DNA of 30,486 nucleotides, from IMG/VR virus record IMGVR_UViG_3300049455_000065, positions 1 to 30,486 of that record, one strand, 5' to 3'. The stretch's first letter is position 1. The number at the start of each line of letters is the position of its first letter. Shown piece by piece: positions 760 to 30,486 of this stretch. Position numbers and translations under genes: made by a program. Source of the DNA: a virus (lineage: Duplodnaviria; Caudoviricetes). The notes beneath the pieces are model-generated. The model had not been told where the DNA came from. It did not search any database and worked only from the letters and a program-made list of their open reading frames with translations.

Positions 760-1206
760 TTAGGAAGTTTGCCTATCAATGTAACCTATCCTTTTCTTTA
801 GCCAATCAACTGCTGTTCCAGCCGCAATAAGAAAGTTGTGATGGTTAAAACATATCAGATAATCAGTTGTAGCATTTGTTAGGTAAAATTCGAAACCAGT
901 ACATTCCGAAAGAACCGGAACAAGCTGTGAGCCATCGTCAAATTTAAAAATGGCGATTTCATCCTGTTTATTAAAGAACATTAATACCTCGGCGTTCATA
1001 ACGAAATCACTGACCCAACGCCAAGCGTCAGGATTTTGAACCGCAACTTTGTCTGTCAAACCTTCCCATATCCATCTTGGCTTATCATGAACGAATTTCA
1101 GAAATATCTGTCTTCTGATTTCCTGTTGTTCTTCTGGTGCCAACTCAGAAATTGAAGCATTCGTTAGTTTTGTTACTTCAATAATTTCATTGCGGATGTA
1201 GCCCAT
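760..1206 (-). CDS. Putative cognate immunity protein (DUF6756-like), 148 aa
   Basis: Small, visibly AT-rich gene 20 nt after the toxin stop, with its own RBS (AGGAG). Motifs W.WE and FEFYL....DYLICFNHHNFLI. Confidence 0.68.
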   Translation of the reverse strand: MGYIRNEIIEVTKLTNASISELAPEEQQEIRRQIFLKFVHDKPRWIWEGLTDKVAVQNPDAWRWVSDFVMNAEVLMFFNKQDEIAIFKFDDGSQLVPVLSECTGFEFYLTNATTDYLICFNHHNFLIAAGTAVDWLKKRIGYIDRQTS

Positions 1207-1226
1207 AATTCTAATCTCCTACTCTC

Positions 1227-4200: not shown

Positions 4201-4517
4201 ATCACCTTCTGGAAGCGCGGGTCCTTTGCCGCCTTGGGATCTTTCAATGTAATGGCTGGTCCGGCTGATGAGGAGGCCAGTAAGGATGGGGGCATTTGGA
4301 CGCGGGTTGGGGCAACGGCTGCCCCAGAGGCTCGTGCGGGTCCTGGACTCCTTCGCGCTGCTTGGGACGATCGGATCGGTGATCCTGGACTCCTGCGTAC
4401 TGCATGGGGCAATCGGGCAGTGGCACGCGCTGGCCCTGGACTCCCTGGTGTCGCCTGAGACGGTCGAGCCGTGGAGGCGGTAGGAGCCGGGCGAGTGCGC
4501 GGCGCAGTCATTGCCAT
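1227..4517 (-). CDS. Polymorphic toxin / CIS effector with probable nuclease tip (Ntox47-like), 1096 aa
   Basis: GGGAGG RBS. Low-complexity N-terminus, long helical/coiled-coil middle, hydrophobic helix (LVLMFNPVGAIIGAIMAIY), and a ~100-aa tip WQGTGKT..AF.KTGVPK..F.ITKYGKD..GKS..VEY...GAEV.ID..H..GPD..HVGWQTPGK..GHILLDDVPYNR recalled as polymorphic toxin type 47. Confidence 0.78.
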   Translation of the reverse strand: MAMTAPRTRPAPTASTARPSQATPGSPGPARATARLPHAVRRSPGSPIRSSQAARRSPGPARASGAAVAPTRVQMPPSLLASSSAGPAITLKDPKAAKDPRFQKVMGKLQQSAVQTKRHPSPQRKAAEAQAAALPPANEKLAGAQANQVDTMQSAKGKKPEADSFLTLLRAEIAKIMPKTLGDTENFMQGDQPQTLKGTMTGNVNQQKEDASGEIKTASSQAPDPGKVEGKAVTPLPTEDVPPTPPAVGAAEAVPEPKLESEVSLQQSKQDTDQQLTDAEVTPGQLQEANDPRFSAVLTAKSSVAKQADSAPKEFRSTEQKTLAQEAARAVSDEKQGLTALQHEKGKAGPAVKLKQLTAKQKDEARRKEVTDTIEKIYSETKQTVETKLASLENDVSSMFDKGIEDAMTKMKSYIDQKMDAYKDDRYGGWDGGLLWASDKLFGMPDEVNVFYENGRKIFTEELDTLVVNIAKVVETRLKEAKDEIAKGQTRISDYVKSLPKDLQAVGKAAEKEVAGRFEELSKGIDEKKNALAQKLAQRYKEATDKANEQLKKMQEENKGLVTKFIEKLGEIIKILREFKERISSMIKKGKDTIMLIVAHPIRFLGYLIDAIKQGVLQFSRNILKHLEKGLMDWLFGSLGEAGIEIPSDFSLGSILKLVLQVLGLTYDRIRAKAVKLIGERNVALLEKAWQFISALIKGGPAAMWEQIKEFLGNLKEMIIKAILDWVVEGIIRAAIKKLVLMFNPVGAIIGAIMAIYDTVMFFIERINDILDLVESIINSVYKIATGDISGAASSIENALAKAIKIMIRFFVRFLHLTGIAEKIKETIKKIQDTVDKAVDKLIDKVVKGIGKLFGKGKNGDKEKPSEAVSTPEGDIDKSAKLGQDPHTLRGHVEGEHIVILMASDGFDDLDKKIDRLRKEYVQHFRDIDSGERAEELDGRFGEILKRKIVIISEVKKAPKDKRKEIFSEGLNELSAMLTAIGRDFAIPVRYEPEGSTENIRWQGTGKTLEEALELAFQKTGVPKVNFKITKYGKDRLGKSHAVEYQSPDGAEVSIDFPHEKEGPDVAHVGWQTPGKRGKGGAKRGHILLDDVPYNR

Positions 4518-11190: not shown

Positions 11191-11265
11191 GGAAAATCTC
11201 CTTTTACTTATTGCTGTGCATCGCTCTTACTGAACAATTTCAGGAAGAGGTGTGTCGCCTACAAA

Positions 11266-11766: not shown

Positions 11767-11792
11767 CAGTTTTCCTCCTTTATTGTCTATGC

Positions 11793-13214: not shown

Positions 13215-13237
13215 GTTCTCTACTCCAATTAGTCTCA

Positions 13238-14671
13238 TCAAGCTATCTGGCTAATTTCAACTATAAAGCCTGTCGTCGTTGCGCTCGTCACATTCGCCGC
13301 CTGTCCCACGCGCACAACCCAACCGCTGGTAATAGTCTTTCCTATAGCTGTAAGTGCATTCACTAAGCTGGTATCAGTGGTAACTGATGGAATGTACTCA
13401 AAGATCTGTGCTGGTATGAGAGTGGCTGTGGTGGTAGTGGCGTTGGCAATCGGCGTGCCTTTCACAATGTACTTGCCATTCTGTTGAAAGCCTCCTTCGA
13501 GCAGGAAGAGATTCTGGTTAGGCGCATTGAGCTGAGTGGCTGTCAGCGTGTTGTTCGTGACTAAGCTGTTAAACACGTTGGTGACAGTCAGTTGTTTATT
13601 TGCATTGGCCGGAAACTGAAACGTGCCCGCCGCAACTATTGAAATGGGAGGTTGAGCAGGGCCATTCAGTAACCATTCTTGCAACAGACGCATGGGGATC
13701 AGGTAAGGACGATGTGGGTCTACGTTTATTATCACACTTGTGTTTCCGCTGGTCACGCTCCAAACTCCGTTGGCATCTTTGCTGACTTGTATATCCACTT
13801 CTGCCAGCGAGAGGCAGGCTTCCTGCGGTGCATCGCCAAAATTTGTGTTCTTCTCGCGCCATAAAGTGGTAAGTTGTGTCGCCCATATGCGGAAAGCACG
13901 ACTCATGTAGTCACTTGCTTGTGCCGCGGGGATACGGACAGGAGGAGTATCAGCTGGATCAAATGTGTATGTGAGCACTGGGGCACCTGTGACGGGTTTG
14001 ATACGACCAATAGCCGTTTCAAATTGATTTGTGGATAAGAACGGTGCGCTATTCACGACCTGCACCTGCTTCAACAAGGCAATGAATGCGCGTATGGCCT
14101 CTTCTGCTTGCTGGTCGGGTGCTGTGACTGGTGGCTTCGCATTTGGGTCGATCAGGCGCAGCTCCAGACCAAAGTCGTCGCTCAGGCGTGATGGGCGCAA
14201 GATGTCTTTTTCGTCGCGGCAGGGTTCACCGGGAATGGGTACCTCGTCTGTTGGCAGGTTGTTATAGCAGAGGACGACATAGGTAGTCAGCTTACCGCTT
14301 GTAGCAGCACCGAACATGGGATCTAGTTCAGACTTGCGTTGGGCAAGCCAATCGTTGATGTTGGCACACTGATCCAATGCGATACGCACAAGTTGGCCCT
14401 GCGGAGTGATCGCTACTCCAGCAGAGACATTGATGCGTGGATTGCTGGTGGCTGTGACTGGATTTGTGCCATCTGTTGTGACTTGCAGTCCACTGATGGT
14501 GCCGTAGCCGATCAGGTCGCGTACTAACCATTGGTTGAGCGCGGATAGATAGGTGAATTCCTGTGTGAAGTCATCTACGCCCAGGACCATGCCCACCGCA
14601 TAGTTGACGTGTTTATGCGGGTCCGGTGGAGGAGCCGTCGCCTCTGCCAGCTTTGTCGCGAAATCAGTCAT
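13238..14671 (-). CDS. Putative tail fibre / baseplate-attached protein A (Afp13-like N-terminus)
   Basis: HVNYAVGMVLGVDDF..E..Y, GYGTISGLQV, V.AGVAITPQGQ, YVVLCY resemble the anchor domain of CIS fibres; Thr/Asn/Ala-rich beta C-terminus. ATG at 14671 has GAGGAG upstream. Confidence 0.65.
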   Translation of the reverse strand: MTDFATKLAEATAPPPDPHKHVNYAVGMVLGVDDFTQEFTYLSALNQWLVRDLIGYGTISGLQVTTDGTNPVTATSNPRINVSAGVAITPQGQLVRIALDQCANINDWLAQRKSELDPMFGAATSGKLTTYVVLCYNNLPTDEVPIPGEPCRDEKDILRPSRLSDDFGLELRLIDPNAKPPVTAPDQQAEEAIRAFIALLKQVQVVNSAPFLSTNQFETAIGRIKPVTGAPVLTYTFDPADTPPVRIPAAQASDYMSRAFRIWATQLTTLWREKNTNFGDAPQEACLSLAEVDIQVSKDANGVWSVTSGNTSVIINVDPHRPYLIPMRLLQEWLLNGPAQPPISIVAAGTFQFPANANKQLTVTNVFNSLVTNNTLTATQLNAPNQNLFLLEGGFQQNGKYIVKGTPIANATTTTATLIPAQIFEYIPSVTTDTSLVNALTAIGKTITSGWVVRVGQAANVTSATTTGFIVEISQIA

Positions 14672-14702
14672 TTTGTGTTTCTCCTCTTGCATATGGTGCT
14701 AT

Positions 14703-17636: not shown

Positions 17637-19949
17637 TCAATAACATTCCTCTGGAATTACAGGTATCGGCATGTATCCGGGTGTCTGGGTAATGGGTGTG
17701 CTCTGTCCTTGTAGTTGTGCCAGGTCAAGCGCGTTGCCTACAGTTACTGCGATGCCCGCGATACGTGGCAATTCAAGGCCATTCATTTCAACTTGTGGTG
17801 CTGAAGTTGTGCTAGCTGTGAGTAGTACGTCATTCACAAACACGACGCCTGGGACACGACTAGCAACGGCTGCCAACTCGGCTGCGAGCACAGTTTTTCC
17901 TCTGGGCCATCCTTTGTTGGCGTTAAATGGCTGCTGCGTACTGAGTATGGGTACTGCGTCGTCTAACTGCACATCCGGGTTAGCGGGTAGTGGTGAAAGA
18001 AACGTGATAAGCGCGCTTTTGACGGCTTCACGCACCTCTGCAATACTCGTACCCGCGATGACGTTGATGCCGATAGAAACCCAGATGGGCTTGTAGATAG
18101 GGCCACGCACAAACACCTCGGTTGTCACAAGGCGACGCGGATCCAGGTATGCACAGATTGCAGCGAGAAAATGATCGTTCGCCTGTGGTGCGTCTGGCTG
18201 AAGTGGGTCATAGCGTGGAATGACCATCAGCGTGACCGCTCCTGGCGCATCGCCCGCCTGGTTTGGTGCCAGTTCGGGATGGAAGGTTGGGATGACATCC
18301 ACGCGCCCGATATCTACTCCTGGAGTGCGTAGCGTGATAGCTTCAAAATCTGCTACGTTCACCAGACGGTCTCGATGTTGCAGATAGCGTGAAATGTGTT
18401 TCTCGCCTTCATCGATAGTTTCCGCATCAGTTCCACCCCAGGTCGGAAGCGGGTTGTTGGCAACAAAACCGCCAGAGAGGACGGGAATACTGCTAATAGC
18501 GTTCGGGCCGACATTGCCGCCACTACCCATACTATAAGCGTAGTCAGCACGCATAGTTGCTCCCGCCGGTGGGCGCATGCCATGCATTCCATCGCCGAAG
18601 CGTATTTTTCCCGATTCTGGATCGAGCACGAACACCTTTGACAAAGTGTTGATAGGATGTGTGGTGCCTGGTGGAAGTCGCAGGTCTGGCACCGCTACCT
18701 CTGAACCCGCGCTCATGAGGTCGTCGATACGCTGCCATTCCCCGGTGACGGTATTATTTGCCGAAAGCGTGGTGGTGACGGTCAGGTGGACGGAGCCGGG
18801 AACAACGGGCGTTTTTGAGAGCGTCACCACCTGGTCTGGTTCTCCTATGCCATCAGGGAGCAGTTCATTCACTACGAGCGCCTGTTGTATGGCAGGTACT
18901 GCGTTGATTCCAGCCCAGAGCAATTTGACGGATGCTGTCGTGGGCGATGTGACACGTATCCAGGTGATGACGCGCTGATTGACCTGCGTATCCTCTATTG
19001 CGGGTGGAAACTCATCTGCTCCAGCCTCTAGGGGGTCTAGATTCGTCCATATATCAAGTTCTGTTTCTATCGGCAGGGTAACCTCTACAATGCCAGGTTG
19101 CTCAAGTACATTCGTCGTTGCCCGTGCATCAAGTGGTCTATAGGATGGCCTCCGTTTGTCTTTGTCGGACGGTAAGGTTGTACCCTGCGGGAAGGTGGGC
19201 AGCAAATATTGTAGGAACAGTGTGCCTTCCGGGTTGGCCTGCCCTGCGGGAAGCAGTTGTCGTCCGGTATCAGTAAAAATAGGTACAATGCCCAGGCTGA
19301 GTGTTTTGCCCGCGATTGCCTTCCTTGCATTTAGTCTGTCTTCATTGGGACGTGCTAGAAGCGCAATCCACAGGGAATGGTCGACGGCATCTTGTCCGAG
19401 ATCAATGCCAGTATTGCCGCGCTGTGGAAAGGGCTGTGTTTCATAGAGTAATGGCAAGACATCGCTTTGTCCAGTCATACGCAGATAGGGGCTATAGAGT
19501 TGCGTATAGTAAGCAATCTGTGTTGGGGATGGATTCGCTAATTTATGTTTATAATACATCTGGGCTTCGATTGGCAAAATGTCCAGACCTTCTTCCGTCC
19601 TGAAAGGAATCTGTCCAGCACGAACCTCTACATCGGCGTTCAAGGTGAAAGTCTGAAGTCCGCCGCTTTTGTTCGTGATCGTGATAAGACCGCGTGAAGG
19701 CGTTGCTGATTGCAGTGGGATTCCGAGCAGCGAAAGAAACTTGCGCCGGTTGCGATCAGGAATCTGGTTGACACGGTACAGTAAACTCTCGGTCAAAAAA
19801 GCCCATAGCTCAATGATGGTCACACCAGGATCGCTTTTATTGAAATTTGTCCATTCGGGATTATGGACGGGAATACGTACCAATGCTTCTTCGAGCAGGT
19901 CTGCATATTTGCGGTTATCGATTGGCTGTAATTCTAACGGCATGGACAT
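17637..19949 (-). CDS. Baseplate J-like wedge protein (Afp11-like), 770 aa
   Basis: IDNRKYADL, RIP.HNPEWTNFNKSDPGVTIIEL, YRVNQIP, IRFGDGMHG.RPP, G..GNV, NPLPTWGG.DAET, RDRLV...DFE, YLDPRRLVTT, GWPRG. Confidence 0.93.
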   Translation of the reverse strand: MSMPLELQPIDNRKYADLLEEALVRIPVHNPEWTNFNKSDPGVTIIELWAFLTESLLYRVNQIPDRNRRKFLSLLGIPLQSATPSRGLITITNKSGGLQTFTLNADVEVRAGQIPFRTEEGLDILPIEAQMYYKHKLANPSPTQIAYYTQLYSPYLRMTGQSDVLPLLYETQPFPQRGNTGIDLGQDAVDHSLWIALLARPNEDRLNARKAIAGKTLSLGIVPIFTDTGRQLLPAGQANPEGTLFLQYLLPTFPQGTTLPSDKDKRRPSYRPLDARATTNVLEQPGIVEVTLPIETELDIWTNLDPLEAGADEFPPAIEDTQVNQRVITWIRVTSPTTASVKLLWAGINAVPAIQQALVVNELLPDGIGEPDQVVTLSKTPVVPGSVHLTVTTTLSANNTVTGEWQRIDDLMSAGSEVAVPDLRLPPGTTHPINTLSKVFVLDPESGKIRFGDGMHGMRPPAGATMRADYAYSMGSGGNVGPNAISSIPVLSGGFVANNPLPTWGGTDAETIDEGEKHISRYLQHRDRLVNVADFEAITLRTPGVDIGRVDVIPTFHPELAPNQAGDAPGAVTLMVIPRYDPLQPDAPQANDHFLAAICAYLDPRRLVTTEVFVRGPIYKPIWVSIGINVIAGTSIAEVREAVKSALITFLSPLPANPDVQLDDAVPILSTQQPFNANKGWPRGKTVLAAELAAVASRVPGVVFVNDVLLTASTTSAPQVEMNGLELPRIAGIAVTVGNALDLAQLQGQSTPITQTPGYMPIPVIPEECY

Positions 19950-19954
19950 ACTCC

Positions 19955-20350
19955 CTACGCATTTGCAAATGTAACGTTCAAACTGACGCGCTCTCGTGTT
20001 TGTGTAGCGACCAGTCGATAGGTAACCGTCGCGATAGCCAGTTGTGGATCGTCGGTATCAGGCACGACGTCAACTGACTCAACATGGATGCGTGGCTCCC
20101 ACTGCGCCAGCGCTTTTTCAATACGATCCTGAATGAGATGACGGGTAGTGACGGTATTCGGCTCAAACAGAAAGAGGCCGAGGCTACCACCAAAGTCAGG
20201 TTGCATCAACCGTTCATTCTGATCAGTTGTGAGGATGATCTGTATAGATTCCCGAACGTTAGCATCACCTTCGGACCACACCACACGTCCATCGGGTCCT
20301 ACATGCGGCGGAAAGCTGATACCTTTTCCGAACAATTTTGATGCGTTCAT
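19955..20350 (-). CDS. GPW/gp25-family baseplate wedge / sheath initiator (Afp9-like)
   Basis: FGKGISFP, VRESIQIILTT..NERLMQPDFG..L..FLFEPN, ALAQWEPRI.V. The ATG at 20350 has GAGG upstream, preferred over the TTG at 20356. Confidence 0.95.
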   Translation of the reverse strand: MNASKLFGKGISFPPHVGPDGRVVWSEGDANVRESIQIILTTDQNERLMQPDFGGSLGLFLFEPNTVTTRHLIQDRIEKALAQWEPRIHVESVDVVPDTDDPQLAIATVTYRLVATQTRERVSLNVTFANA

Positions 20351-20368
20351 CGTCAACCTCTTTGTTGT

Positions 20369-22015
20369 TTATTTCTTGCTGATTAATGGTATTGGGAAAC
20401 AGATACGCACAAAGGGTAACCACCAGAATATGATGTTTAACAGGACGAGAAAAATCATGAGCACGAGTAAAGCGCAGATCGTGATAATAGGGATAGCCAT
20501 CGAGCAGATAACGCCGAGATCGAACTCTTCGCCACTGGCAATATTGCCATCAATGACGCTTTTGAGATTTGTCACACTCTCCATCTGCTGACGGAGCTGA
20601 TTAGAAATGACAAAAGAGACATTTTTCTTGAATTTGCGCAGATTCGCGATACTCGTATCGATGGGAAGCGAGATACGAATCGGGCGAGCTGGCGCATCAA
20701 AGTCAAAGAACGACGCAATTTCAAACGGGGTGCTGGCCTCACTGACAATGCTTTGCACAGCACCACAGCGCGTACGCTGATAAACGCAGCGCAAGCTGAA
20801 AAGTGGTGTACCAACTCCGGTTGAGTTGAGCTTGGGCAGTGGTACGAGATCATTGGCAGGTGAGTGCGCGTGTGCTTGATACGGTCCAATAGCATTCTTT
20901 ACCGTGTCAGACAATTTTTGTAAATCAATCTTGGTGTATCTGAGATTGTAGGTAGGGAGCGTGGTAGCTGTCCCACCATCCAGGCCTATAATAACGTTGC
21001 GCTGATCCCACACAGTGCGTAATGCAGTCTGCCAGGTGATGGATGATGCTTTATCGATGTAGGATGTGCTAAGCAGATTATAAAGTGCTAGTCCCGCGCT
21101 ATCTATTGGTGGCGTAGATGTATAGATTGCCGTCCAGAGCGATGCTACTGACGATGGATATTTTGCGAGAAATGTGGCACAATCTAGCAGTACAAACAGC
21201 GATGCCTCTTGCTCGTGCCGTTCCCGCTCAGCATCAATTTCTGTTTTCTTTCCTTGTAATTCTGGTGGCAATGCCTGTATGGGCGCTTGTAAGTGCAGCT
21301 GTATCAGATCGATAATATTGCTCTGAAACTCATCCATGCGCGGGTCTGTTGCCGTTTTTGCGGGCACGCCAGGAGGCGTTGGCGCAGGCGTATCAAATGG
21401 CGATGGAAGCTTAGTTGCTGTAGCCTTAAATGACTCACGGCTGGACGTGGGAATGAGGCCAACCAGCAAACGCCGGCGTTGCCGGTTCTCTACAAAGTTG
21501 ACAGGAAACAGTGGAAGCAGTTCTTCTTGCTCTGCAAGAGTATGCTCTGTTCCATTCTGTAACATGAGCCACGTTTTGCTATTGGGCGATTCCGAGGTGC
21601 TAACCCAGGCAAACTCCGTTAGGTTATCCAAGCTGATGCGACGGCGCAACACAAAGCCGACTCTTTCGGCTTGTGTTGTATCAACAACCTTATCGGGTAG
21701 CCCAACGATGCGACAAACGAGATTAGCAGCAATCAAACAGAAGTGTCCATGGGTGGGTTGATAGAGCTTTAATTGTGCTGGTGGAGGTGGAGTATCCCCG
21801 ATTTCGCCGGGCAATAGTTCGCGAAAGCTTTCGGGCACGGCCTGATGATTAGAAAGGTCCGGCACTTCTTTTTGTAATTGCCGTGCAAGGTCTTCCATGA
21901 AGGTATCCGACGCGAAGCGCAGGATGGCTGGTTGCTGTATCTGCGCGGGTGTTTGCTGTGGTGTTTTCCACAGTGGAGACGCCGTAACCCATTGTACTAC
22001 AGGTTCTGCTGCCAT
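20369..22015 (-). CDS. Uncharacterised CIS-associated protein with hydrophobic C-terminal segment, 548 aa
   Basis: Long ORF 4 nt downstream of the spike gene. C-terminus GVICSMAIPIITICALLVLMIFLVLLNIIFWWLPFV is more than 30 uncharged residues. Confidence 0.8.
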   Translation of the reverse strand: MAAEPVVQWVTASPLWKTPQQTPAQIQQPAILRFASDTFMEDLARQLQKEVPDLSNHQAVPESFRELLPGEIGDTPPPPAQLKLYQPTHGHFCLIAANLVCRIVGLPDKVVDTTQAERVGFVLRRRISLDNLTEFAWVSTSESPNSKTWLMLQNGTEHTLAEQEELLPLFPVNFVENRQRRRLLVGLIPTSSRESFKATATKLPSPFDTPAPTPPGVPAKTATDPRMDEFQSNIIDLIQLHLQAPIQALPPELQGKKTEIDAERERHEQEASLFVLLDCATFLAKYPSSVASLWTAIYTSTPPIDSAGLALYNLLSTSYIDKASSITWQTALRTVWDQRNVIIGLDGGTATTLPTYNLRYTKIDLQKLSDTVKNAIGPYQAHAHSPANDLVPLPKLNSTGVGTPLFSLRCVYQRTRCGAVQSIVSEASTPFEIASFFDFDAPARPIRISLPIDTSIANLRKFKKNVSFVISNQLRQQMESVTNLKSVIDGNIASGEEFDLGVICSMAIPIITICALLVLMIFLVLLNIIFWWLPFVRICFPIPLISKK

Positions 22016-22019: not shown

Positions 22020-22736
22020 TCACCAGATATTTCCAGCCCCAGGCGTGTAAGAGGTACTTACAACGCTATTGGTAATGACCGTATCGGCCTGTACGACTCC
22101 ACTAAACTTCGACATTCCTGCGTTGACGGTGAGCATGCCCGCCGAGATTTCAGCGTTGCTAGCCGTAATCGTGACCTTCGCGGACGCTGACACCGTCACG
22201 CCGCTAGTGCCCAGCTTGATGGAATTGCCATTGCTATCAACCACCTCAACCGCTCCTGGCCCATCTTTCAGCGTGATCTTCTGTCCACCAGGTGTCTCTA
22301 GTAGAAGTGTTTCCTGCCCATCTGTATCATCAAGTGTAATCTTGATGCCTTTACGCGAACAGAGGACTTTGCGATAATTATTGCCCCCACCATCCATAGA
22401 GGCAGGTGGGTCATCTTTGCCATTCCAAAGGCCACCGATGACATAGGGATGGCGGGGGTCGCCCCCTTCAAAGGTAATCAACACTTCATCGTTCACATCG
22501 GGTATGAACCAGCTGCCGCGCTTATTGCCGCCCATCAATGTGGCGATGCGGGCCCAGGCTTCGTAGAGTTCCCCTTTGGAATCAGGCGACCAGGGCAGAG
22601 TGATTTTGACGCGTCCACGCCCGTCTGGGTCCTTAATGTCACTAACTAGCGCGGGGTAGACGCCGTACCAACGACCCCCTAAGCCGGTTGGTACGCGAGC
22701 ATCAATCATCATTTCAAGTGGCATTTGTTCAAACAC
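22020..22736 (-). CDS. Spike protein, baseplate assembly protein V / gp5 OB-fold (VgrG C-terminal half), 238 aa
   Basis: GVYPALV.DIKDPDGRGRVKI.LPW, WARIAT..GG..RG.WFIPDV.DEVL..FEGGDP..PYVIGGLWNG, followed by a beta-strand-rich tail. GTG start. Confidence 0.93.
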   Translation of the reverse strand: MFEQMPLEMMIDARVPTGLGGRWYGVYPALVSDIKDPDGRGRVKITLPWSPDSKGELYEAWARIATLMGGNKRGSWFIPDVNDEVLITFEGGDPRHPYVIGGLWNGKDDPPASMDGGGNNYRKVLCSRKGIKITLDDTDGQETLLLETPGGQKITLKDGPGAVEVVDSNGNSIKLGTSGVTVSASAKVTITASNAEISAGMLTVNAGMSKFSGVVQADTVITNSVVSTSYTPGAGNIW

Positions 22737-22781: not shown

Positions 22782-23840
22782 TTATGGTCTGCCAAGACCG
22801 GGACGTTCGGCAGTAAACTCACTACGAATACCATTCGCGCCATCAAAAAGGTGTTTGACTTCCGAGACATAATATTTGCCATTGAACAATGGGCCGAGTC
22901 CATCCAGGTCAATGGTATTGCCAACACGCAACTGGCTGGTCGTCTCGGCGATACCATGTCCTGTCACAAAGCGGCGTGCGCTGAGCTTAAAGTAGGCTTC
23001 CGCGATAGCCTGGGCCTCCTGTCCTGTCAGGGGAGCCGTATGTACTAGCGATTCCTTGCGTTGCCCAAGTGCGGAAGAGAGGACGCTCGCTCCGCTCAAG
23101 CCGCCATTTAACTCGCCGTTGATGATCGAATCGGTTGCCTCGTGCTGCAACCCACTTTTACTCGTGACATCCCAACCATTGACGGTCACGCCCGTGCGCT
23201 GCATCGCCAGGTCTGCCAGTACGGAGAACTCGCGCAGGTCTTTTCCATAGCTCATCTTCAATGCCCCATGTGCTCGATTGGTGCGGGGTTGCGCGTGCAA
23301 GGTACTGCCTTCCATCCATACCTCTGCGTCAATAGCGCGGGCGCGTTCACGTAGAAAGGCGAGGTCGCTCTGATTCACCTGGGCCAGTACTTTGTATTTC
23401 GGGCCGTGTACATCAACGCTGGGGCTTAATCCGTGTTCGTTAGCGATCTGTTTGATGACATCGGCATCGCTCACATCGCCAAAGGTGCGTGTACGGCGCG
23501 TCATACGCAAGTCTTGAAAGCGGTCCTCAATGAGTAATGTGAGCGCGGGTGGGCTGCCCTGTGGAAATTGACCTTCGAGACCCATGATGCGCCCGTTGAA
23601 CAGCACGTCAGTGCCGAGTTTGACCTGCATGGTTTTGCCGAAGTCGAGCAGACTGCGGTCAAAGTACAGGAATTCAATGCTCTTGTTTTTGTTGCCCCAG
23701 TTGCCAAACACGGCCTCGCAGCAATACAACCCATGCGTATCTTCCGCGATGAGCATGCTGAGCAGTCGTTGTGCTAGTTCTGGCTCGTCACGTCCAGCAA
23801 TAGTGATGATTGGGCGAGCAATTCTGACAGTGTTATCCAT
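22782..23840 (-). CDS. Baseplate hub, phage late control D / VgrG N-terminal (gp27-like) protein, 352 aa
   Basis: LFNGRIMGLEGQF, EDRFQDLRMTRRTRTF, QVNQSDLAFLRERA, V.VNGWD, LRVGNTIDLDGLG..FNGKYYVSEVKHLF. Confidence 0.92.
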   Translation of the reverse strand: MDNTVRIARPIITIAGRDEPELAQRLLSMLIAEDTHGLYCCEAVFGNWGNKNKSIEFLYFDRSLLDFGKTMQVKLGTDVLFNGRIMGLEGQFPQGSPPALTLLIEDRFQDLRMTRRTRTFGDVSDADVIKQIANEHGLSPSVDVHGPKYKVLAQVNQSDLAFLRERARAIDAEVWMEGSTLHAQPRTNRAHGALKMSYGKDLREFSVLADLAMQRTGVTVNGWDVTSKSGLQHEATDSIINGELNGGLSGASVLSSALGQRKESLVHTAPLTGQEAQAIAEAYFKLSARRFVTGHGIAETTSQLRVGNTIDLDGLGPLFNGKYYVSEVKHLFDGANGIRSEFTAERPGLGRP

Positions 23841-23863: not shown

Positions 23864-24037
23864 TTAATGGGCACGCATGCGTGCAAGACGGTGCATATGC
23901 TGTCGCACAACTCGATGAATATCATGTGCCGTAGAAGGCTGTTGTGGCTTCTGAGACTCGTCGGTGGGAGTCCCTAACGGTTTTGCGGCTGGTGGTGGCT
24001 CCGCGACAACCTCGAATTCGTTAATAATGACGGCCAT
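23864..24037 (-). CDS. Small CIS-associated protein (possible Afp6-like), 57 aa
   Basis: ATG at 24037 preceded by GAAGGGAG; MAVIINEFEVV...RLARMRAH. Fills the gap between the tube initiator and hub genes. The Afp6 analogy is from size, the M.V.I.E start and context only. Confidence 0.65.
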   Translation of the reverse strand: MAVIINEFEVVAEPPPAAKPLGTPTDESQKPQQPSTAHDIHRVVRQHMHRLARMRAH

Positions 24038-24068
24038 GTTGTATACTCCCTTCTCGTGTATTCGAATG

Positions 24069-24806
24069 CTAGCGGTTAGAAACCGAGACATTCATGTCGA
24101 TAAGCTGTCCTGGCGTAAGGATTCGAGGATTCTCAATGCCATTAGCGGCTGCGATGCCTTGCCAATCGCCCCCCTTACCTAAGCTCGCAGCGAGATTGGG
24201 CAAATTGGTATTCGCGAGAGCTGGTGTGAGTGGGCTGGTCCCAGGAGAGGGCAATGCGAGACCGCCACCACCGGATCCAGCTCGTCCTGCTGTTGGACGA
24301 ATCACAAACTCCTGTATCTTCTGCTGTGAGAGGCTCAGATTCATACTAGCGCGTAGCGGTCTGCCATCGTTGGAAAAGAACTCAAGCGACTCGTCCAGTG
24401 AATCCATCAGGCCATCAAATTGAAATGACCCCCACACAAAGCGAATGGCTGGTGGGATGAATGTATTAGAGCCGGGTGGATCCTGCTTGGGTGTGATAAA
24501 GTATGCCACGCGTTGTGTCAGCTTGCGCACATCATCCACTGTTGGATGATCGTCAGGCTGTGGTACGGTAATGTCAAACCAGATTTGTAGTGACAGTTTG
24601 GTTGTGCCAGCACCGACAAACTGGCGTGGCGCCGGACCCGTTTTGTCGCCACCTCCATCAGGCGAGACAAGCTGGTTGGCAAAGGTCACTTTCAAGGTTT
24701 CCGGATTGAACTGCACCTTGGTCCATTTCTCTTTGTTTTTCTCGTTTTTGAAATCTGCGTCCATTTCTCGCAGTTCTGCTTTCTCTGGTTTGGTCACATC
24801 TGTCAT
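24069..24806 (-). CDS. CIS tube initiator with C-terminal LysM-like domain (Afp7-like), 245 aa
   Basis: VQFNPETL, LSLQIWFD, PPAIRFVWGSFQF.G, ESLEFFS.DGRPLRA, and a LysM-type end WQGIAAANGIENPRILTPGQLI. Confidence 0.9.
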   Translation of the reverse strand: MTDVTKPEKAELREMDADFKNEKNKEKWTKVQFNPETLKVTFANQLVSPDGGGDKTGPAPRQFVGAGTTKLSLQIWFDITVPQPDDHPTVDDVRKLTQRVAYFITPKQDPPGSNTFIPPAIRFVWGSFQFDGLMDSLDESLEFFSNDGRPLRASMNLSLSQQKIQEFVIRPTAGRAGSGGGGLALPSPGTSPLTPALANTNLPNLAASLGKGGDWQGIAAANGIENPRILTPGQLIDMNVSVSNR

Positions 24807-24817
24807 CGTATTCCCTC

Positions 24818-25315
24818 TTACAATCCAACATTCATATTGAGGCCAATACCCGAACCCAGGCTGGGTTGCTTGAATGAAAGAGACTCATACACAAGCTGCA
24901 ATTCTTCAATGGCAATCACTCCATCTTTGGCATTTAATGCAGGAGCCTTCAGTTTGGTAGGCAGACAGCGTCGAAGCAGGAAGCGAGCGCGTTCTGTCTG
25001 CCCATCGCCTGCGAAGAGCACAACTTCTGCGTCGGCGCGTAGCCCTATTTTATCTGGTAATAGCATGGTGCTAAACCAGGTCCACAGGTCGAATGAGTCG
25101 GTCATGCCGCGTTTTAAGGTCAGTTGACCATAGCTCAGTGGCCCCGTCAAGCGAATCTGTTGACCATTGTTGCCGCCCTCGCGAATCGTCTTGACTTCCA
25201 TTGTCATCTCAAGCCCATCGCATTCAGAGAATGCAGCACTGCATATCTGAGGCGAGATGCCAGGGATGTTGATTTCGACCGCGAAGTTAAACGCAGTAAA
25301 TGGATAATTCGGCAT
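24818..25315 (-). CDS. Tail tube protein 2 (Afp5-like, gp19 family), about 165 aa
   Basis: YPFTAFNFAVEI, AAFSECDGLEM, IREGGNN, LTLKRGMT, PALNA, AIEELQLVYE. Start moved to the ATG at 25315 (GGAAGGA upstream), which removes the overlap with sheath 2. Confidence 0.93.
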   Translation of the reverse strand: MPNYPFTAFNFAVEINIPGISPQICSAAFSECDGLEMTMEVKTIREGGNNGQQIRLTGPLSYGQLTLKRGMTDSFDLWTWFSTMLLPDKIGLRADAEVVLFAGDGQTERARFLLRRCLPTKLKAPALNAKDGVIAIEELQLVYESLSFKQPSLGSGIGLNMNVGL

Positions 25316-25322
25316 GGCGTAC

Positions 25323-27929
25323 TTATCCTTCCGTAACCAAAGCGCGATCATTGGATTGTAGTAAACGTACCGTTAGAAAGGTGAGCGGCAGCGATGGCGC
25401 GACCTTTAACTCGACGATGAAACGTCCCTGATCAATGCTTTGCGGCGTATTCAGATAACTTTTGGTCACGACCTGAAACGCCTCGCTCGCTGTATTGCCT
25501 GCGAGGGCACCGCGAATAAAGAGTTGCTCAAGCATAGCCTCGAAACCGCGCTGTACCTGGCGGCGGAATGCGCCATTGTTTGGCTCAAAGACATAGTCTG
25601 CTCCCAGGCGTAAGGCGAGCCGCCGTAGGAGTATCAAGAGCCGCCGAACGTTGATTGATCGCAATTCCGTGTCGTCGCTCAGTGTATCAGCACTCAAATA
25701 AAGGAATCCGCGCGGCTCCTGGTGAATGATATTCAGCTGGGCTTCTTGCAGGTCGAGCCAGCGTTCGCGAGCAAGTGGCGGGTATAACGCCACAATGTTA
25801 CTCATCACCTCATTCGCAGGCGCAATCCAGGCGCCACGGTTGAGTGCTCGCTGTGCCATGATACCAGCAGCTGCGCCATCAGGTGGAGTTTGGCGCAGCA
25901 TGTCCAACTGACTATTTTCACGTCCAATCAGCCAGGGATGGTAGAGCGAACCAAAGCTGAATGCGCGAGCTTCATCGAGACCTGACAAGCCAACATCCAC
26001 TGCTCTCACAGATGTTTCAGGCGAAAAGGACGATTTTAGCTGCAAAACGTGCGTTAGAGCGGCATCTTCCCGATAATGCGCTGGTAAGACCATGACCGCG
26101 AAGATATCACCACGAGCGCCACACAACCGCAAAAGCGCCCTCTGCACCTGGAGTATTGGTTTCTCAGTCGGTAGTGTGTCGTATTGTTCGGATGTGTTGT
26201 ATTGCCATTGTACAGCCGGGGCAACACGTACAACGACTCCATTGGACCAATCGCTTACAATACCTTCGATTTGGGCATTGACGCGATAATAGTAGTCACG
26301 AGGGCTACGATCATAGAGGGTGTGTGAAGTATCAAGACCAGAATAGATCACGGCGGCTCCCGCAAAATCAGGGCTGGTAGACTCTTGCAGCGTATAGCGA
26401 ACTGTCTGCTGGGCTGTGCCAACTGCCTTCCAGGAGAGCGCATAGCTGCTTGGCTGTATCTTTGGTTGTGGTTGCGTCAACGTTGGCGCAGAAGTAACAG
26501 GTACAACGGCACAGTTCTGAAATGTCGGTGCTGGCAATTGTGCTGTTGGTGGCTGCGGTTTTGGCGCTGGTGGGTCCTGTGGGTCTCCTCCGTCATAAAT
26601 CGAAGTCCAGCCGCGCTGCACCGCATCAGGCACGGCTATAATGGTTGCCTCCTCGATACCAAGCGCCGCGTGGATACCCTGAAGCGGACGCGGCAACGGA
26701 CGTTGATAGCGAATGAAATCTGCGATTGCCAGCAAATTCTCTGTGCTCACTCCTTCAATCATGTCATGATCGAGAAAGAGGCTGCTTTCAAACTGCGCCA
26801 ATCCATCGCGATCAAGAGCCGTCTCAGGCCGGGGCGTAGCGGAGCCGGGCACAGGAATAGTGGGCCGCTGTTCCGCACTTTGAAAAGCTTTATAGAAGCT
26901 GTCGAGCGAGAAAAGCTGCAGATCCGCCGGGAGATAGTAATATGTACCAGTATCCCAGCCCGCTAGTGGAAAGTTCGCAGCTGTCGCTTCCTGCCAGAAT
27001 GCCGCAAAGCTGTTCTCGATAGGAACGCCCGAATCCGCATATACCTGCTCGTCTGTCGGCAGAGCGCCCGCGAAGCGTGGGTGCTGCGGATTGAAGCCAA
27101 GATTGCCGAGACGAGTAAAGCTGCCATCCGCAAAGCGCACCCAAAGCTCAAACGATACGACAGCCCCCTGCGCCTGCACATTCGTCGACGGCGCGGGCAC
27201 AGTATCAGCGAGTATGGATTGCAATGAGAGCGGCTGCTTGAAGAGAAAGAGCCTGTGCGCTGCCAAGGTATAAACCTGAGTCTTAGAAAAGACTGGCATG
27301 GCCGGAGTACGAGTCACGCTGTCGATGAGCGCAAAAAGGATATAGTCACTTTTTTTAAAGGTATAGGTTAATTGTAAGAGACGCCCCGGCTCGACGGCGA
27401 AATCGGAGGTCAGTGTCAGCGACAGGCTGGTTTTATCATCGGCGAATCTGAGGTCGCTGACAGCGGCAGTCTCGCTGATCAAGGCTGCATTGACCTGTAG
27501 ACCATCGGACCAGCTACCCGCCGAACGGGCCTGAATGAGCGCCGGGCGAATATCCCACTGCTTGCCTTGCTCAATCCATTGCAAGCGTACCATACCGGGA
27601 ATGGAGAAGAGATTGTAGACAGCGAGCGCGCTTGCTACGCGAATAATCCAACAGCGGCGCCCACCGTTTCGGAAGAAGGCACGAACCGCAGGAGCAAGAT
27701 AGGCGTAGATGACCTCGCCTTGCTGTTCGTCCCAGGCCAGCGGCAGATCATCACCAAAGATGGCGGTAAAATGGATAACGTCCTCTACCGCAACCGGAAT
27801 GTGCAACGGCCCAGACGTGGCAAAGCCGACGAAGACCGCCACGTCCATGCGCGGCAGCACATCAGTGAGCGGCGGCGGTTGCACCTCAAAGCGGATTCCG
27901 GCTAGGCGTCGTGACGTTTGTATACCCAT
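25323..27929 (-). CDS. Second, enlarged tail sheath-family protein with Pro-rich and FN3-like insertion, 868 aa
   Basis: Sheath N-terminal motifs (DVAVFVGFATSGP, YLAPAVRAFFRNGGRRCWIIRV) and C-terminal motifs (LYHPWL, PPDGAAAG, WIAPAN, INVRRL, YVFEPN, GRFIVELKVAP), with internal insertions. Confidence 0.9.
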   Translation of the reverse strand: MGIQTSRRLAGIRFEVQPPPLTDVLPRMDVAVFVGFATSGPLHIPVAVEDVIHFTAIFGDDLPLAWDEQQGEVIYAYLAPAVRAFFRNGGRRCWIIRVASALAVYNLFSIPGMVRLQWIEQGKQWDIRPALIQARSAGSWSDGLQVNAALISETAAVSDLRFADDKTSLSLTLTSDFAVEPGRLLQLTYTFKKSDYILFALIDSVTRTPAMPVFSKTQVYTLAAHRLFLFKQPLSLQSILADTVPAPSTNVQAQGAVVSFELWVRFADGSFTRLGNLGFNPQHPRFAGALPTDEQVYADSGVPIENSFAAFWQEATAANFPLAGWDTGTYYYLPADLQLFSLDSFYKAFQSAEQRPTIPVPGSATPRPETALDRDGLAQFESSLFLDHDMIEGVSTENLLAIADFIRYQRPLPRPLQGIHAALGIEEATIIAVPDAVQRGWTSIYDGGDPQDPPAPKPQPPTAQLPAPTFQNCAVVPVTSAPTLTQPQPKIQPSSYALSWKAVGTAQQTVRYTLQESTSPDFAGAAVIYSGLDTSHTLYDRSPRDYYYRVNAQIEGIVSDWSNGVVVRVAPAVQWQYNTSEQYDTLPTEKPILQVQRALLRLCGARGDIFAVMVLPAHYREDAALTHVLQLKSSFSPETSVRAVDVGLSGLDEARAFSFGSLYHPWLIGRENSQLDMLRQTPPDGAAAGIMAQRALNRGAWIAPANEVMSNIVALYPPLARERWLDLQEAQLNIIHQEPRGFLYLSADTLSDDTELRSINVRRLLILLRRLALRLGADYVFEPNNGAFRRQVQRGFEAMLEQLFIRGALAGNTASEAFQVVTKSYLNTPQSIDQGRFIVELKVAPSLPLTFLTVRLLQSNDRALVTEG

Positions 27930-27932
27930 TGC

Positions 27933-28385
27933 TTATGCCATCTCCAGGCGTTCGTACGCTAATACTAACTCTTCCATTGCCACAACGTTACCCACTGCAT
28001 TCAAAGGGCCACTGGTGTGCTTGATAATGCGGGCACGCAGCAGTTTCCATTCCAGGACGACATCGGTATGATTCTCGTTCTGTAGCTGTATGACGACAGT
28101 ACGATAGGCACTCTGATCGCCATTACGAATCTGGTCGAGCCATTTGTACAGGTTGAGCGAGCCAATGACACCGCGTTTGAGCGTCACGTCGGTTGATTTG
28201 TTCATACCAGTGATCTTCATGACGCTATTCTCTTTGGCGTTGCCGTTGCGATACTCGGAAACCGTCACCTCCATGCCAATACCGCTACATTCCTGGAACC
28301 CCGCCTCCGGTCCATCGGTGCTGCCTGTACCCAGGTCCACCAGGAAGTTGAATTGTACATAGGGGCGTTCGCGTAAAACTGCCAT
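27933..28385 (-). CDS. Tail tube protein 1 (Afp1-like, T4 gp19 family), 150 aa
   Basis: PYVQFNFLVD, AGFQECSGIGME, EYRNGN, VTLKRGV, W.DQI, GP-LNA, AMEELVLAYE. Strong RBS (AAGGAGG) upstream; directly follows the sheath gene. Confidence 0.95.
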   Translation of the reverse strand: MAVLRERPYVQFNFLVDLGTGSTDGPEAGFQECSGIGMEVTVSEYRNGNAKENSVMKITGMNKSTDVTLKRGVIGSLNLYKWLDQIRNGDQSAYRTVVIQLQNENHTDVVLEWKLLRARIIKHTSGPLNAVGNVVAMEELVLAYERLEMA

Positions 28386-28425
28386 GTATTCCTCCTTTGG
28401 CTTCAGATGAGTCCCGCGCTTATAG

Positions 28426-30486
28426 TTAGCCTCGGCGGTCCCCTGTCCATTGTCCGATGCGGAAAATCACAAACTCGGCGGGTCGCAGCGGCGCAACGCC
28501 GATGAGACAAACGAGACGCCCATTATCAAGGTCGTTTTGAGTCATGGTTGAACGATCACAACGAACGAAGTAGGATGTTTCTGGTTTGTCGCCGAGTAAC
28601 GCTCCCGCTTGCCACTCATTGAGAAGGAAATCTTCGATTGTACGGCGCACATTTGCCCACAGCGCTGGCCCGTTCGGCTCAAAGACAGCAAACTGTGTCC
28701 CTCGGTCAATAGAGTGTTCGAGATAGGCAAAGTAGCGACGCAGGTTGACATACTTCCATTCAGGATCAGAACTGATCGTGCGTGCGCCCCAGAGCCTGTA
28801 GCCGCGCCCCTCAAAGAAGCGGAAGCAGTTAATTCCCTCCGGATTAAGTACCTCTTGTTGACTCTTGTTGAGCATCACCTCAAAACCAAGAGCCAGGTTC
28901 ACCACCTCATTGGCAGGTGCTTTGTAGACAGCACGGGTAATGTCGTTACGAGCATAGATGCCTGCTACGAATCCGCTTGGCGGCAAGTTAATCTCCACAC
29001 GTGTCACCGGGTCGAGAATGCGCACCCAGGGGTAGTAGAGCGCGGCATATTTCGAGTCGAATTTCGCACGCATAGCACGTGCCTGTGAAATTGATAAGTT
29101 ATCGCCACTGTCTAGCACTGCAATGCGATAGCGCATGTATTCGGCATGGGCGATAAGGAGACTAATAATCGTGTTTGCATCGTCTGTCCGTAAGGCTGAG
29201 GAAATGTAGTTTGCTGTAGAGCCAGGTGCTGCAACAATTGAGATGTCATCAATGTCCTCGAATGCTTTCAGACCTGTTTTCGTGGTTTTCGAAGGATCTG
29301 CCACCCCTTCATACTCTCCGGCGCCGGGTTGAAGACCATCGTTCCCCCCCACAAGGTCGACGACTACAGGAGACGGGTCGGCTGCTTTCGGATCGGTGAT
29401 GCCTGTGAGCACGTTGGATGGAAACAACGTTTGTAACACGTCTAGCCCATTGGCAATTTTATCGCCTATCAAAAAGACGATAGGCAGGGTGCGTGCTTGC
29501 GCAAGACTTGCCGGCACATTCGCGAAGTAATCAAACAGTGAGTCGAGCTGGTCGTTGCGTTTGTGCTCAAAATCGGGGGCGAGACCACTCCATACAAGTG
29601 ATGTACCATCGCTTTGTATAGCTGTGACGGTCAGTGTAACAACACGTACACTATCGGTTGAAGGATCAAGACCTTTGCCGTCGTCAGTGTTAAGTCGCAA
29701 GTCCTTGTTAGCAGGATCGCTGTCTTTTTGTTTCGCTTTGCCAAAACGCCACGTGTTTTCGGCTGTGTCGAATGTGGCGATGTAGAACCCACTCACTTTT
29801 GTAGGATTCGCTCCTGTTCCCGTTACCTGATTAATCCACACAATTTCATTGTTGAGCAGGCTTGGAGTGCTTGCTCTATCAGTTGTTGTTGCTGTAGTTC
29901 TCTTTTTGCCACCGAGAACGTTTTGGCCCAGATGGAGCGTAAAGAGGATACGCATATTGCCAGCATCACCGGGGAAGCGGGCGCGAATCTGAATGAGCTT
30001 GTCACTGTCCGCAGGTGGTGTTGCGCTTGCGCCAAGGAGTGCACGTGCGTGCCCATCTTCGTATACAGTAAGCCCCCCTGCTGTTGCTTTAGGGCCATTC
30101 TTTTCGATAGTGGCAGCAGGATAGCTATAGGCAGCAGCATTACTCTTGCCGGCGTCGATAGTTTTATCAGTAGCAAGAACAAATGGCTTGAAGGTACGCA
30201 TACAGTAAAGCCGTTTGCCACCTTCCTCAAAGAATGCGCGTACGGCATGCCATAGGAAGTTGTGCGAGACAGTAGTGGCGGCACTACCGACATACTGTAA
30301 CTGCTTGCGGTCTCCGTAGGCCAGTTCAAATTCACCAAGACTGGTGATAACATCGGGTACTATGTCGATGGGACCAAAGCGAGTTGGACCTATAAACCCT
30401 GTTGTGGTGGTGCTCACGCCTTCAATCGATTTAGAACGGAATGAGACCTCTTCAACATAGACGCCAGGGGCAAGATATTCAGGCAT
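28426..30486 (-). CDS. Contractile tail sheath protein 1 (Afp2/3/4-like, T4 gp18 family), 686 aa
   Basis: N-terminus MPEYLAPGVYVEEVSFRSKSIEGVST. Sheath core motifs YAALYYPW, PPSGFVAGIYARND, KAPANEVV, LNPEGINCFR, LWGARTIS..WKYVNLRR, VFEPN, GVAPLRPAEFVIFRI. The ATG is the last codon of the window. Confidence 0.96.
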   Translation of the reverse strand: MPEYLAPGVYVEEVSFRSKSIEGVSTTTTGFIGPTRFGPIDIVPDVITSLGEFELAYGDRKQLQYVGSAATTVSHNFLWHAVRAFFEEGGKRLYCMRTFKPFVLATDKTIDAGKSNAAAYSYPAATIEKNGPKATAGGLTVYEDGHARALLGASATPPADSDKLIQIRARFPGDAGNMRILFTLHLGQNVLGGKKRTTATTTDRASTPSLLNNEIVWINQVTGTGANPTKVSGFYIATFDTAENTWRFGKAKQKDSDPANKDLRLNTDDGKGLDPSTDSVRVVTLTVTAIQSDGTSLVWSGLAPDFEHKRNDQLDSLFDYFANVPASLAQARTLPIVFLIGDKIANGLDVLQTLFPSNVLTGITDPKAADPSPVVVDLVGGNDGLQPGAGEYEGVADPSKTTKTGLKAFEDIDDISIVAAPGSTANYISSALRTDDANTIISLLIAHAEYMRYRIAVLDSGDNLSISQARAMRAKFDSKYAALYYPWVRILDPVTRVEINLPPSGFVAGIYARNDITRAVYKAPANEVVNLALGFEVMLNKSQQEVLNPEGINCFRFFEGRGYRLWGARTISSDPEWKYVNLRRYFAYLEHSIDRGTQFAVFEPNGPALWANVRRTIEDFLLNEWQAGALLGDKPETSYFVRCDRSTMTQNDLDNGRLVCLIGVAPLRPAEFVIFRIGQWTGDRRG

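What the first reader, a model, noticed from the sequence alone, without database searches (positions are those of the whole stretch)
20369..22015. Protein with very hydrophobic C-terminus sits in the PAAR slot behind the spike
Seen: the gene starts 4 nt after the spike stop and ends with GVICSMAIPIITICALLVLMIFLVLLNIIFWWLPFVRICFPIPLISKK (20369-20515), a stretch of more than 30 uncharged residues, with three Cys in the segment and a basic end. No N-terminal signal peptide is evident. Known: in many CIS loci PAAR lies next to the spike and gp25 genes, and membrane-attached CIS exist (Amoebophilus T6SS-iv, Anabaena thylakoid CIS, Streptomyces CisA). Inference: a tail-anchored membrane tether, or a spike-tip/plug protein that inserts into target membranes.
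Basis: partly seen in the sequence, partly recalled or inferred. Interest (0 to 1): 0.8.

Follow-up and report, generated by a model that had tools for sequence, protein, structure and literature searches.

The report
Spike-clamping membrane protein of PAAR-less injectors
In a little-studied class of bacterial injection needles that lack the usual PAAR tip protein, this conserved protein is predicted to clamp onto the side of the needle's spike and likely uses its strongly hydrophobic tail helix to grip a membrane, most likely the target's, during injection.

Summary
The 548-aa ORF starts 4 nt after the spike stop and ends in a 37-residue uncharged run with one TM-grade helix (510-530). No signal peptide is evident. 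The locus fits eCIS subtype IIb (split VgrG, no PAAR), whose subtype-specific genes were published without function (PMC6899500). The gene follows the spike in 15 of 16 viral and 44 of 51 metagenome loci found by the spike-tip motif alone. No PAAR-type gene lies within 100 kb in 46 of 46 genomes. The hydrophobic segment is the most conserved part of the protein. It is not a PAAR: the model shows an Ig-like beta-sandwich with a helical insert. A complex prediction (spike trimer + protein) passes at 0.64, best control 0.17; this mark was reached by 116 of 157 solved and 2 of 215 mismatched pairs. The beta-domain sits on the flank of the distal spike beta-helix; the tail is not placed. Best reading: a spike-borne collar, likely three copies, whose helices insert into the target membrane (0.42). 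Main rival: a tether to the producer's membrane (0.33). Verdict: new variant of a known kind; interest 0.62.

The parts
20369..22015 (-). The finding: 548-aa core protein of subtype IIb-type CIS. Predicted Ig-like beta-sandwich (about 7-192 plus 405-440), variable helical insert (225-376), low-confidence linker (445-503), hydrophobic C-terminal helices
   Evidence: no Pfam, NCBIfam or PHROG family (4, 5, 137)
20369..20515 (-). Hydrophobic C-terminus: TM-grade helix 510-530, short helix 529-539, near-invariant C504, P509, T512, C514, A515, W532, C539, P541; acidic N-flank, basic C-flank
21440..21907 (-). Residues 37-192, holding the predicted spike-binding surface (37-44, 86-92, 113-114, 167-173, 180-192; plus F436 outside this range)
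   Evidence: conservation
22020..22736 (-). gp5-like spike (C-terminal half of a split VgrG), 238 aa, with a near-invariant last 10 residues; residues 174-229 form the predicted binding face
22782..23840 (-). gp27-like hub (Phage_GPD), N-terminal half of the split VgrG
19955..20356 (-). gp25 / Cis9 baseplate protein
17637..19949 (-). Baseplate J / Cis11, single copy, 770 aa
14703..17633 (-). Cis12-like protein (Tail_P2_I; CIS12_fam E 2e-38, below cut-off)
13238..14692 (-). Cis13-like protein (weak, E 0.005)
23864..24040 (-). Conserved 58-aa ORF in the Afp6/Cis6 position (identity inferred from position and size only)
   Evidence: no match in 104, 108
24069..30486 (-). CIS_tube (Cis7-like), tube, sheath, tube, sheath
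4524..6629 (-). AAA+ ATPase (Cis15)
760..4517 (-). 1096-aa effector candidate with C-terminal Ntox47 domain, followed by a DUF6756 gene (likely immunity, inferred from position)

Best explanation
The protein is a conserved core gene product of PAAR-less (subtype IIb-type) contractile injection systems that is predicted to bind the flank of the spike's distal beta-helix, would ride out with the spike, and likely inserts its hydrophobic C-terminal helix into the target cell's membrane. Shown: the fixed position between spike and gp25, the mutual exclusion with PAAR, and one TM-grade helix that is the most conserved part of the protein and the only such segment among the conserved structural genes. 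Predicted: an Ig-like beta-domain docking on spike residues 174-229, contributed by all three chains. Inferred: three copies, one per face of the trimer; their helices gather around the spike's own pointed end, shielded inside the baseplate before firing, and pin the spike and tube in the target membrane so the effector can cross. Spike binding as such I put at about 0.75; the target-side action is the less certain step.
For: Complex score 0.64 (runs 0.64, 0.67, 0.60), best of 3 controls 0.17; the mark was reached by 116 of 157 solved complexes and 2 of 215 mismatched pairs (counts hold only roughly for this job); runs agree in at least 65% of contacts; partner pLDDT at least 63. The 25 interface residues are more conserved than the rest of the beta-domain (0.60 vs 0.50, p 0.03 in A2; 0.77 vs 0.62, p 0.006 in A1) and include F39, G186 and P189. 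The spike-to-gene gap is -10 to +20 nt in 79 of 87 loci. Exclusion with PAAR: 31 of 31 against 0 of 24. Residues 504-541 are the best-conserved 38-residue window, also in the 14 sequences found by the spike motif alone; that is more than a plain anchor needs (inference). The published anchors I read about attach, or are proposed to attach, to the baseplate that stays behind: Cis12/13 in Anabaena, CisA to Cis11, Hbor_38620. A part fixed on the spike must move when it fires (inference). An effector with a likely immunity gene beside it points to delivery into other cells (inference).
Against: The hydrophobic tail is not among the confident contacts, and only one copy of the protein was modelled. 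On the spike side the interface conservation excess is not significant (0.79 vs 0.72, p 0.07). The conservation test uses the alignments the model was given, so it is not independent. A helix this hydrophobic would normally be taken into the producer's own membrane; no chaperone was identified. No lysis gene was recognised in six fully read loci, which fits a cell-attached system as well. Seven of 51 spike-tip loci lack the gene. The PAAR exclusion is one clade against others, so it is not many independent events.
Confidence: 0.42

Rival explanations
1. Producer-side tether: the helix sits in the cell's own cytoplasmic membrane and the beta-domain grips the spike, docking the CIS tip-first at the membrane (T6SS-like or cytoplasmic-CIS mode). 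It would release, or act as the trigger, at firing.
For: Same spike interface. It is the only conserved structural gene with a TM-grade segment: KD at least 2.0 in 80 of 83 ORF pieces, against 2 of 83 for baseplate J and 0 for the other families. No signal peptide and a short basic tail, like a tail anchor. Positions 516, 518, 520, 522, 523 vary but their majority residues are hydrophobic, as on a lipid-facing side (inference). Other CIS lineages each recruited their own anchor. No lysis gene recognised in six loci.
Against: The anchor would be on the moving part. Near-invariant residues and three conserved cysteines are unusual for a plain anchor. The acidic N-flank (68 of 87) and basic C-flank (84 of 87) run against the positive-inside rule for an N-in single pass (rule recalled, and some bacterial tail anchors also end basic).
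Confidence: 0.33
2. Purely structural spike collar or plug: the hydrophobic helices are buried against each other, the spike end or baseplate J, stabilise the PAAR-less tip and never enter a bilayer.
For: Very high sequence conservation; some coupling signals link 454-467 with 503-537 in the pooled alignment.
Against: Those couplings are unstable between subfamilies. The helix has almost no hydrophobic moment (0.11) and no charge in 316 of 321 cores, unusual for a soluble bundle.
Confidence: 0.13
3. The modelled spike contact is wrong or incidental; the protein is a membrane protein that binds another baseplate part (gp25, baseplate J, Cis12), like CisA.
For: The job is unlike the tool's calibration, partner pLDDT is only 63-64, and a beta-helix face is a generic docking surface. 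Other partners were not tested.
Against: Both unrelated partners (0.00, 0.17) and the replaced spike (0.00) scored low; three runs agree; conserved residues lie in the interface.
Confidence: 0.12

Closest known systems
eCIS subtype IIb (Chen et al. 2019, PMC6899500; passages and Table S3 read, figures not seen)
   Same: Split afp8, single afp11, divergent afp12/13, PAAR gene 'solely absent from subtype IIb', two or three subtype-specific genes with no known domain. Listed carriers include Sorangium, Corallococcus and Archangium, genera in which homologues were found here.
   Different: The passages read assign no function, membrane segment or partner to those genes. That this gene is one of them is inferred. 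No experimental study of a IIb system appeared in my nine literature searches.
PAAR / Cis10 / gp5.4 spike tip
   Same: Same gene slot; predicted to bind the distal spike; alternative to PAAR across loci.
   Different: 548 aa; no PAAR family match; predicted Ig-like plus helical fold; binds the flank rather than the blunt end in the model; carries a TM-grade helix.
CIS membrane anchors: Anabaena Cis13 (PMC8894136), Streptomyces CisA (PMC12237407), Halogeometricum Hbor_38620 (PMC11566945), Salmonella SalCis19 (bioRxiv 2025.06.01.657177); passages read
   Same: A CIS-linked protein with a transmembrane helix, specific to one lineage.
   Different: Those attach, or are proposed to attach, at the baseplate or fibres; this one is predicted on the spike. 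No sequence match to any PDB chain; CisA and Hbor_38620 were not compared directly.
T6SS spike cargo: Bacteroides BtpeA-BtaeB-BtapC on VgrG (PDB 9JG8; secondary passages in PMC13402684 and PMC13699834); TMD-bearing PAAR effectors such as Tse6 (recalled)
   Same: Spike-borne proteins needed for system function; BtaeB domain aligns to the beta-domain at Z 6.1-6.2, rmsd 3.6-3.8 A, 126-131 residues.
   Different: That Z ties with generic Ig-like folds (best 7.0), so homology is not shown. This protein is a fixed core gene with no toxin domain or adjacent immunity gene.

Membership tests
eCIS subtype IIb locus | afp8 split into gp27 and gp5 genes | tested here: met
   Phage_GPD and Phage_base_V as separate ORFs
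eCIS subtype IIb locus | No afp10/PAAR gene | tested here: met
   No PAAR_motif in the record (only this family was searched there, and the record ends at the first sheath gene); none of three PAAR-type families within 100 kb in 46 of 46 related genomes
eCIS subtype IIb locus | Single afp11; divergent afp12 and afp13; afp15 ATPase | tested here: met
   (CIS12 and CIS13 matches below curated cut-offs, CIS13 weak)
eCIS subtype IIb locus | afp6 present | tested here: inconclusive
   Conserved 58-aa ORF at the expected place; no Pfam or PDB match
eCIS subtype IIb locus | afp16 cap gene | tested here: inconclusive
   Outside the window; Pvc16_N found upstream in 6 of 6 related loci read in full
eCIS subtype IIb locus | Placement in the IIb clade of the published tree | not tested
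   No reference sequences of dbeCIS loci were at hand
PAAR / Cis10 tip proteins | PAAR-type sequence family | tested here: not met
   No Pfam, NCBIfam or PHROG match
PAAR / Cis10 tip proteins | Small conical beta fold | tested here: inconclusive
   Model is an Ig-like sandwich plus helices; residues 445-548 were barely tested in the fold search
PAAR / Cis10 tip proteins | Caps the blunt end of the spike | tested here: inconclusive
   Confident contacts are on spike 174-229; 230-238 are not named, which is no evidence that they do not touch
Tail-anchored membrane protein | Single TM-grade helix near the C-terminus, no N-terminal signal | tested here: met
   (hydropathy only)
Tail-anchored membrane protein | Short C-terminal tail throughout the family | tested here: not met
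   Met in the window and in 85 of 87 loci; not in a subfamily with a 100-125 aa extension
Tail-anchored membrane protein | Resides in the producer's membrane, N-terminus inside | not testable with these tools
   Needs fractionation and topology reporters

The most novel reading that the evidence does not exclude
Subtype IIb injection systems have replaced the PAAR tip with a two-part device: a self-pointed spike end and a trimeric collar clamped on the spike's three faces, whose conserved hydrophobic helices form a membrane-inserting harpoon or translocation ring that is carried from the baseplate (or the producer's membrane) into the target membrane.
Probability: 0.3. Interest if true: 0.85.

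Novelty: new variant of a known kind. Interest (0 to 1): 0.62.

Why it matters
Subtype IIb is the one eCIS lineage described as lacking PAAR, and its authors suggested a different way of contacting targets without naming a part. This gives a concrete candidate and a testable interface in a family found in Chloroflexota, Myxococcota, Acidobacteriota, Actinomycetota, Bacillota, Gemmatimonadota and Pseudomonadota. Either outcome is informative. A membrane-inserting collar on the spike would be a new way for a CIS to engage its target. An anchor on the spike would be a further independent route to a membrane-attached CIS, on a part where the papers I read report none.

Tried and rejected
Family and sequence searches of the protein gave nothing: Pfam, NCBIfam, PHROGs, PDB sequences, phage and plasmid records. 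No longer, fused form scored among 8000 candidates (58; weak evidence); shorter forms were not searched. Foldseek against PDB and BFVD had no match at E 0.001 or better. VIA-align gave only generic Ig-like and helical-bundle matches, best Z 7.0, none at 8 or more; this does not show a new fold. The ESM Atlas returned only unnamed clusters for the whole protein and nothing usable for 440-548. Mean-field coupling analysis (328 sequences, Neff 211) recovered plausible beta-sheet pairs, but the tail pairs changed between subfamilies, so a hairpin, a C101-C417 or C504-C539 disulfide, or a Cys4 metal site stay unsupported ideas. Two full TM helices rejected: 527-545 scores +6.4 on the summed insertion scale. 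Tape-measure role considered unlikely: globular model, spike-flank contact. DNA-level cause of the spike-tip conservation rejected: third codon positions vary freely. The S. davawensis and Roseiflexus systems are other subtypes. A second AlphaFold job on a more diverse alignment (A5) had not finished when the session ended, and no profile search of the 50%-identity library was obtained, so very remote relatives are not covered. No RNA holder was listed. Earlier scan findings: none returned.

Full report
Observation. The ORF at 20369-22015 (minus strand, 548 aa) starts 4 nt after the stop of the spike gene and is followed by gp25. Its end is as quoted: a 37-residue uncharged run, three cysteines and a KK end. 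Its 19-residue hydropathy peak of 3.18 is the highest of the 21 window ORFs tested. One helix, 510-530, is TM-grade; the following half is not (scales recalled). The protein matches no Pfam, NCBIfam or PHROG family.

The locus. The record is filed as a provirus, but the 21 ORFs scanned are two sheaths, two tubes, a CIS_tube protein, a conserved 58-aa ORF, a split VgrG (gp27 hub and gp5 spike), this gene, gp25, one baseplate J, Cis12- and Cis13-like genes, four unknowns, an AAA ATPase, an Ntox47-bearing effector candidate, a DUF6756 gene and a glycosyltransferase fragment. No capsid or terminase family was hit. Chen et al. 2019 (PMC6899500; passages, Table S3, figures not seen) define eCIS subtype IIb by a split afp8, one afp11, divergent afp12/13, afp6 present and afp10/PAAR 'solely absent', with two or three subtype-specific genes of no known domain. 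The window fits. The afp6 identity is inconclusive and the tree placement was not tested. That this gene is one of their unnamed genes is my inference; their Figures 4B and S4, which I could not see, bear on it.

Family and context. Homologue searches gave 783 and 852 hits among 8000 scored candidates each and 429 confirmed stretches in GTDB genomes, of which the best 80 were kept. In those 80, the spike precedes the gene in 73 (the other 7 contigs end at the gene) and gp25 follows in 79 (the other, L073, is frameshift-ridden). Those loci were found with patterns from the hydrophobic end, so I repeated the test from the spike side. Of 16 viral contigs found by the spike's last ten codons, 15 have the gene next and one ends 191 bases later. 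Of 120 metagenome loci, 51 have at least 1 kb downstream and 44 of these have the gene. Of 37 complete ORFs, 36 keep the hydrophobic segment and the 37th is frameshifted; 5 have a C-terminal extension of about 100-125 residues, as do L093 and L095. The 7 exceptions are a T6SS-type VgrG, a protein with a signal-peptide-like start, orphan spikes and one hub-plus-spike pair, all ending in the same tip motif. The tip is therefore portable and does not need this gene. I found no homologue outside a CIS, and none in phage or plasmid records; most protein-database hits have no context.

PAAR. In 46 genomes chosen from the 80 loci for long contigs, no match to PAAR_motif, Tox-PAAR-like or DUF4280 lies within 100 kb of the gene; the nearest is 154 kb away (coordinates compared by eye). 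Nineteen of the 46 have no match to any of the three; many are incomplete MAGs. In 30 of these genomes, 31 spikes reach the end of the spike profile and all sit next to this gene. Of the 24 next-closest spikes (E 4e-46 to 9e-23), 18 have a PAAR-type gene within 1 kb downstream and none has this gene. One further decayed tip remnant lacks the gene (L113). This is one clade against others, not many independent events.

Conservation. Residues 504-541 are the best-conserved 38-residue window: 0.76 in 68 diverse homologues and 0.66 in the 14 found by the spike motif, against 0.29-0.32 for the helical insert. C101, C417, C504, C514 and C539 are kept in 327, 328, 325, 322 and 326 of 328 sequences. 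The segment has an acidic N-flank in 68 of 87 and a basic C-flank in 84 of 87. It is the only TM-grade segment among the conserved structural genes of the 80 loci. The spike's last ten residues are 0.98 conserved in 53 loci found through this gene, with free third codon positions.

Structure. AlphaFold2 (119 sequences; mean pLDDT 81.9, pTM 0.62) gives a beta-domain from 7-187 plus 405-433, a helical insert at 225-376, a low-confidence stretch at 445-503, and helices 501-525 and 529-539. The beta-domain aligns to Ig-like folds at best Z 7.0, rmsd 3.2 A, 113 residues; the Bacteroides T6SS spike cargo BtaeB ties at Z 6.1-6.2. This is a common arrangement, not shown homology.

Complex. Three copies of spike residues 100-238 with one copy of the protein scored 0.64 (0.64, 0.67, 0.60), best of 3 controls 0.17. 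The mark was reached by 116 of 157 solved complexes and 2 of 215 mismatched pairs, counts that hold only roughly for this job. Runs agree in at least 65% of contacts and partner pLDDT is at least 63. The model supports binding; it does not show it. Confident contacts join spike 174-229, from all three chains, to residues 37-44, 86-92, 113-114, 167-173, 180-192 and 436. I read this as one flank of the distal beta-helix; neither spike 230-238 nor the hydrophobic tail is named. The protein's interface residues are more conserved than the rest of its beta-domain (p 0.03 and 0.006); on the spike side the excess is not significant (p 0.07). These alignments were also the model's input.

Mechanism. 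A trimeric spike has three equivalent faces, so three copies would form a collar near the tip, with three hydrophobic helices at the end that meets the membrane (inference). I favour action at the target (0.42): the protein is on the part that moves, the helix is far more conserved than a plain anchor needs, it takes the slot of the PAAR tip, and the locus carries an effector with a likely immunity gene. The rival is a tether in the producer's membrane (0.33): it is the locus's only conserved TM gene, looks like a tail anchor, no chaperone was identified, and no lysis gene was recognised in six loci read in full, where only 30 of the 108 unassigned or flanking ORFs and effectors were scanned against Pfam. 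A buried structural role (0.13) and a wrong interface (0.12) remain.

Literature. Anchors in Anabaena (Cis13; PMC8894136), Streptomyces (CisA; PMC12237407), Halogeometricum (Hbor_38620; PMC11566945) and Salmonella (SalCis19; bioRxiv 2025.06.01.657177) were read as passages; they act or are proposed to act at fibres or baseplate. Passages of PMC12998442, PMC11126660, PMC8651086, PMC13402684 and PMC13699834 were also read. Nine searches of the open-access library showed no experimental study of a IIb system or of this gene. Subscription papers, dbeCIS itself and preprint supplements were not covered. Tse6-type TMD effectors and the positive-inside rule are recalled, not looked up.

Verdict. A real, conserved core component of a known but unstudied CIS subtype, with a newly predicted spike interface and a membrane-grade helix. 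New variant of a known kind; interest 0.62.

Noticed in passing
L164:1206-3230, L172:3201-3683, L135:672-1136, L175:97-498, L191:2802-3230, L207:2463-3230, L113:7173-7445: The IIb spike's last ~45 residues occur as a portable C-terminal module: on a full T6SS-type VgrG, on a 160-aa protein with a signal-peptide-like start, on a 154-aa protein with an effector-like N-terminus, and on orphan or decayed spikes. Possibly a self-pointed, PAAR-independent apex.
   Followed up: partly
window 22020-22050: The spike's last ten residues are near-invariant across phyla at the protein level and lack the paired histidines recalled for P2 gpV-type apexes; how the point is stabilised is unexplained.
   Followed up: partly
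L093, L095, L144, L147, L155, L169, L177: Subfamily in which the hydrophobic helix is followed by about 100-125 further residues; useful for settling topology.
   Followed up: partly
window 388-750; L101, L103, L105, L107, L109: GT2 glycosyltransferase genes follow the effector in the window and in 5 of 6 related loci read in full; one locus also has a GT4 inside the operon. Particle or receptor glycosylation is a possibility. The window's GT2 ORF is only 120 aa and may be broken.
   Followed up: no
window 760-4517: 1096-aa effector candidate with a hydrophobic stretch and C-terminal Ntox47, then DUF6756. Related loci carry homologous carriers, two with an eCIS_core domain, and different C-termini.
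   Followed up: partly
window 6626-8470: Conserved 614-aa gene before the ATPase with a conserved C-terminal motif; position suggests a divergent tape-measure (Cis14) gene, although lineage II is said to lack one. No family match.
   Followed up: partly
window 8470-13241: 482-, 227- and 906-aa genes after Cis13-like; the 482-aa gene is conserved, the others vary between loci and may be fibre or receptor-binding parts.
   Followed up: no
G012:C1:749405-750796 and G012:C3:1525722-1527221: One myxobacterial-type genome carries two divergent copies of the system, each with its own version of this gene.
   Followed up: partly
window 1-30486: The record is filed as a provirus but reads as a CIS operon; several other IMG/VR contigs found here are of the same kind.
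   Followed up: partly
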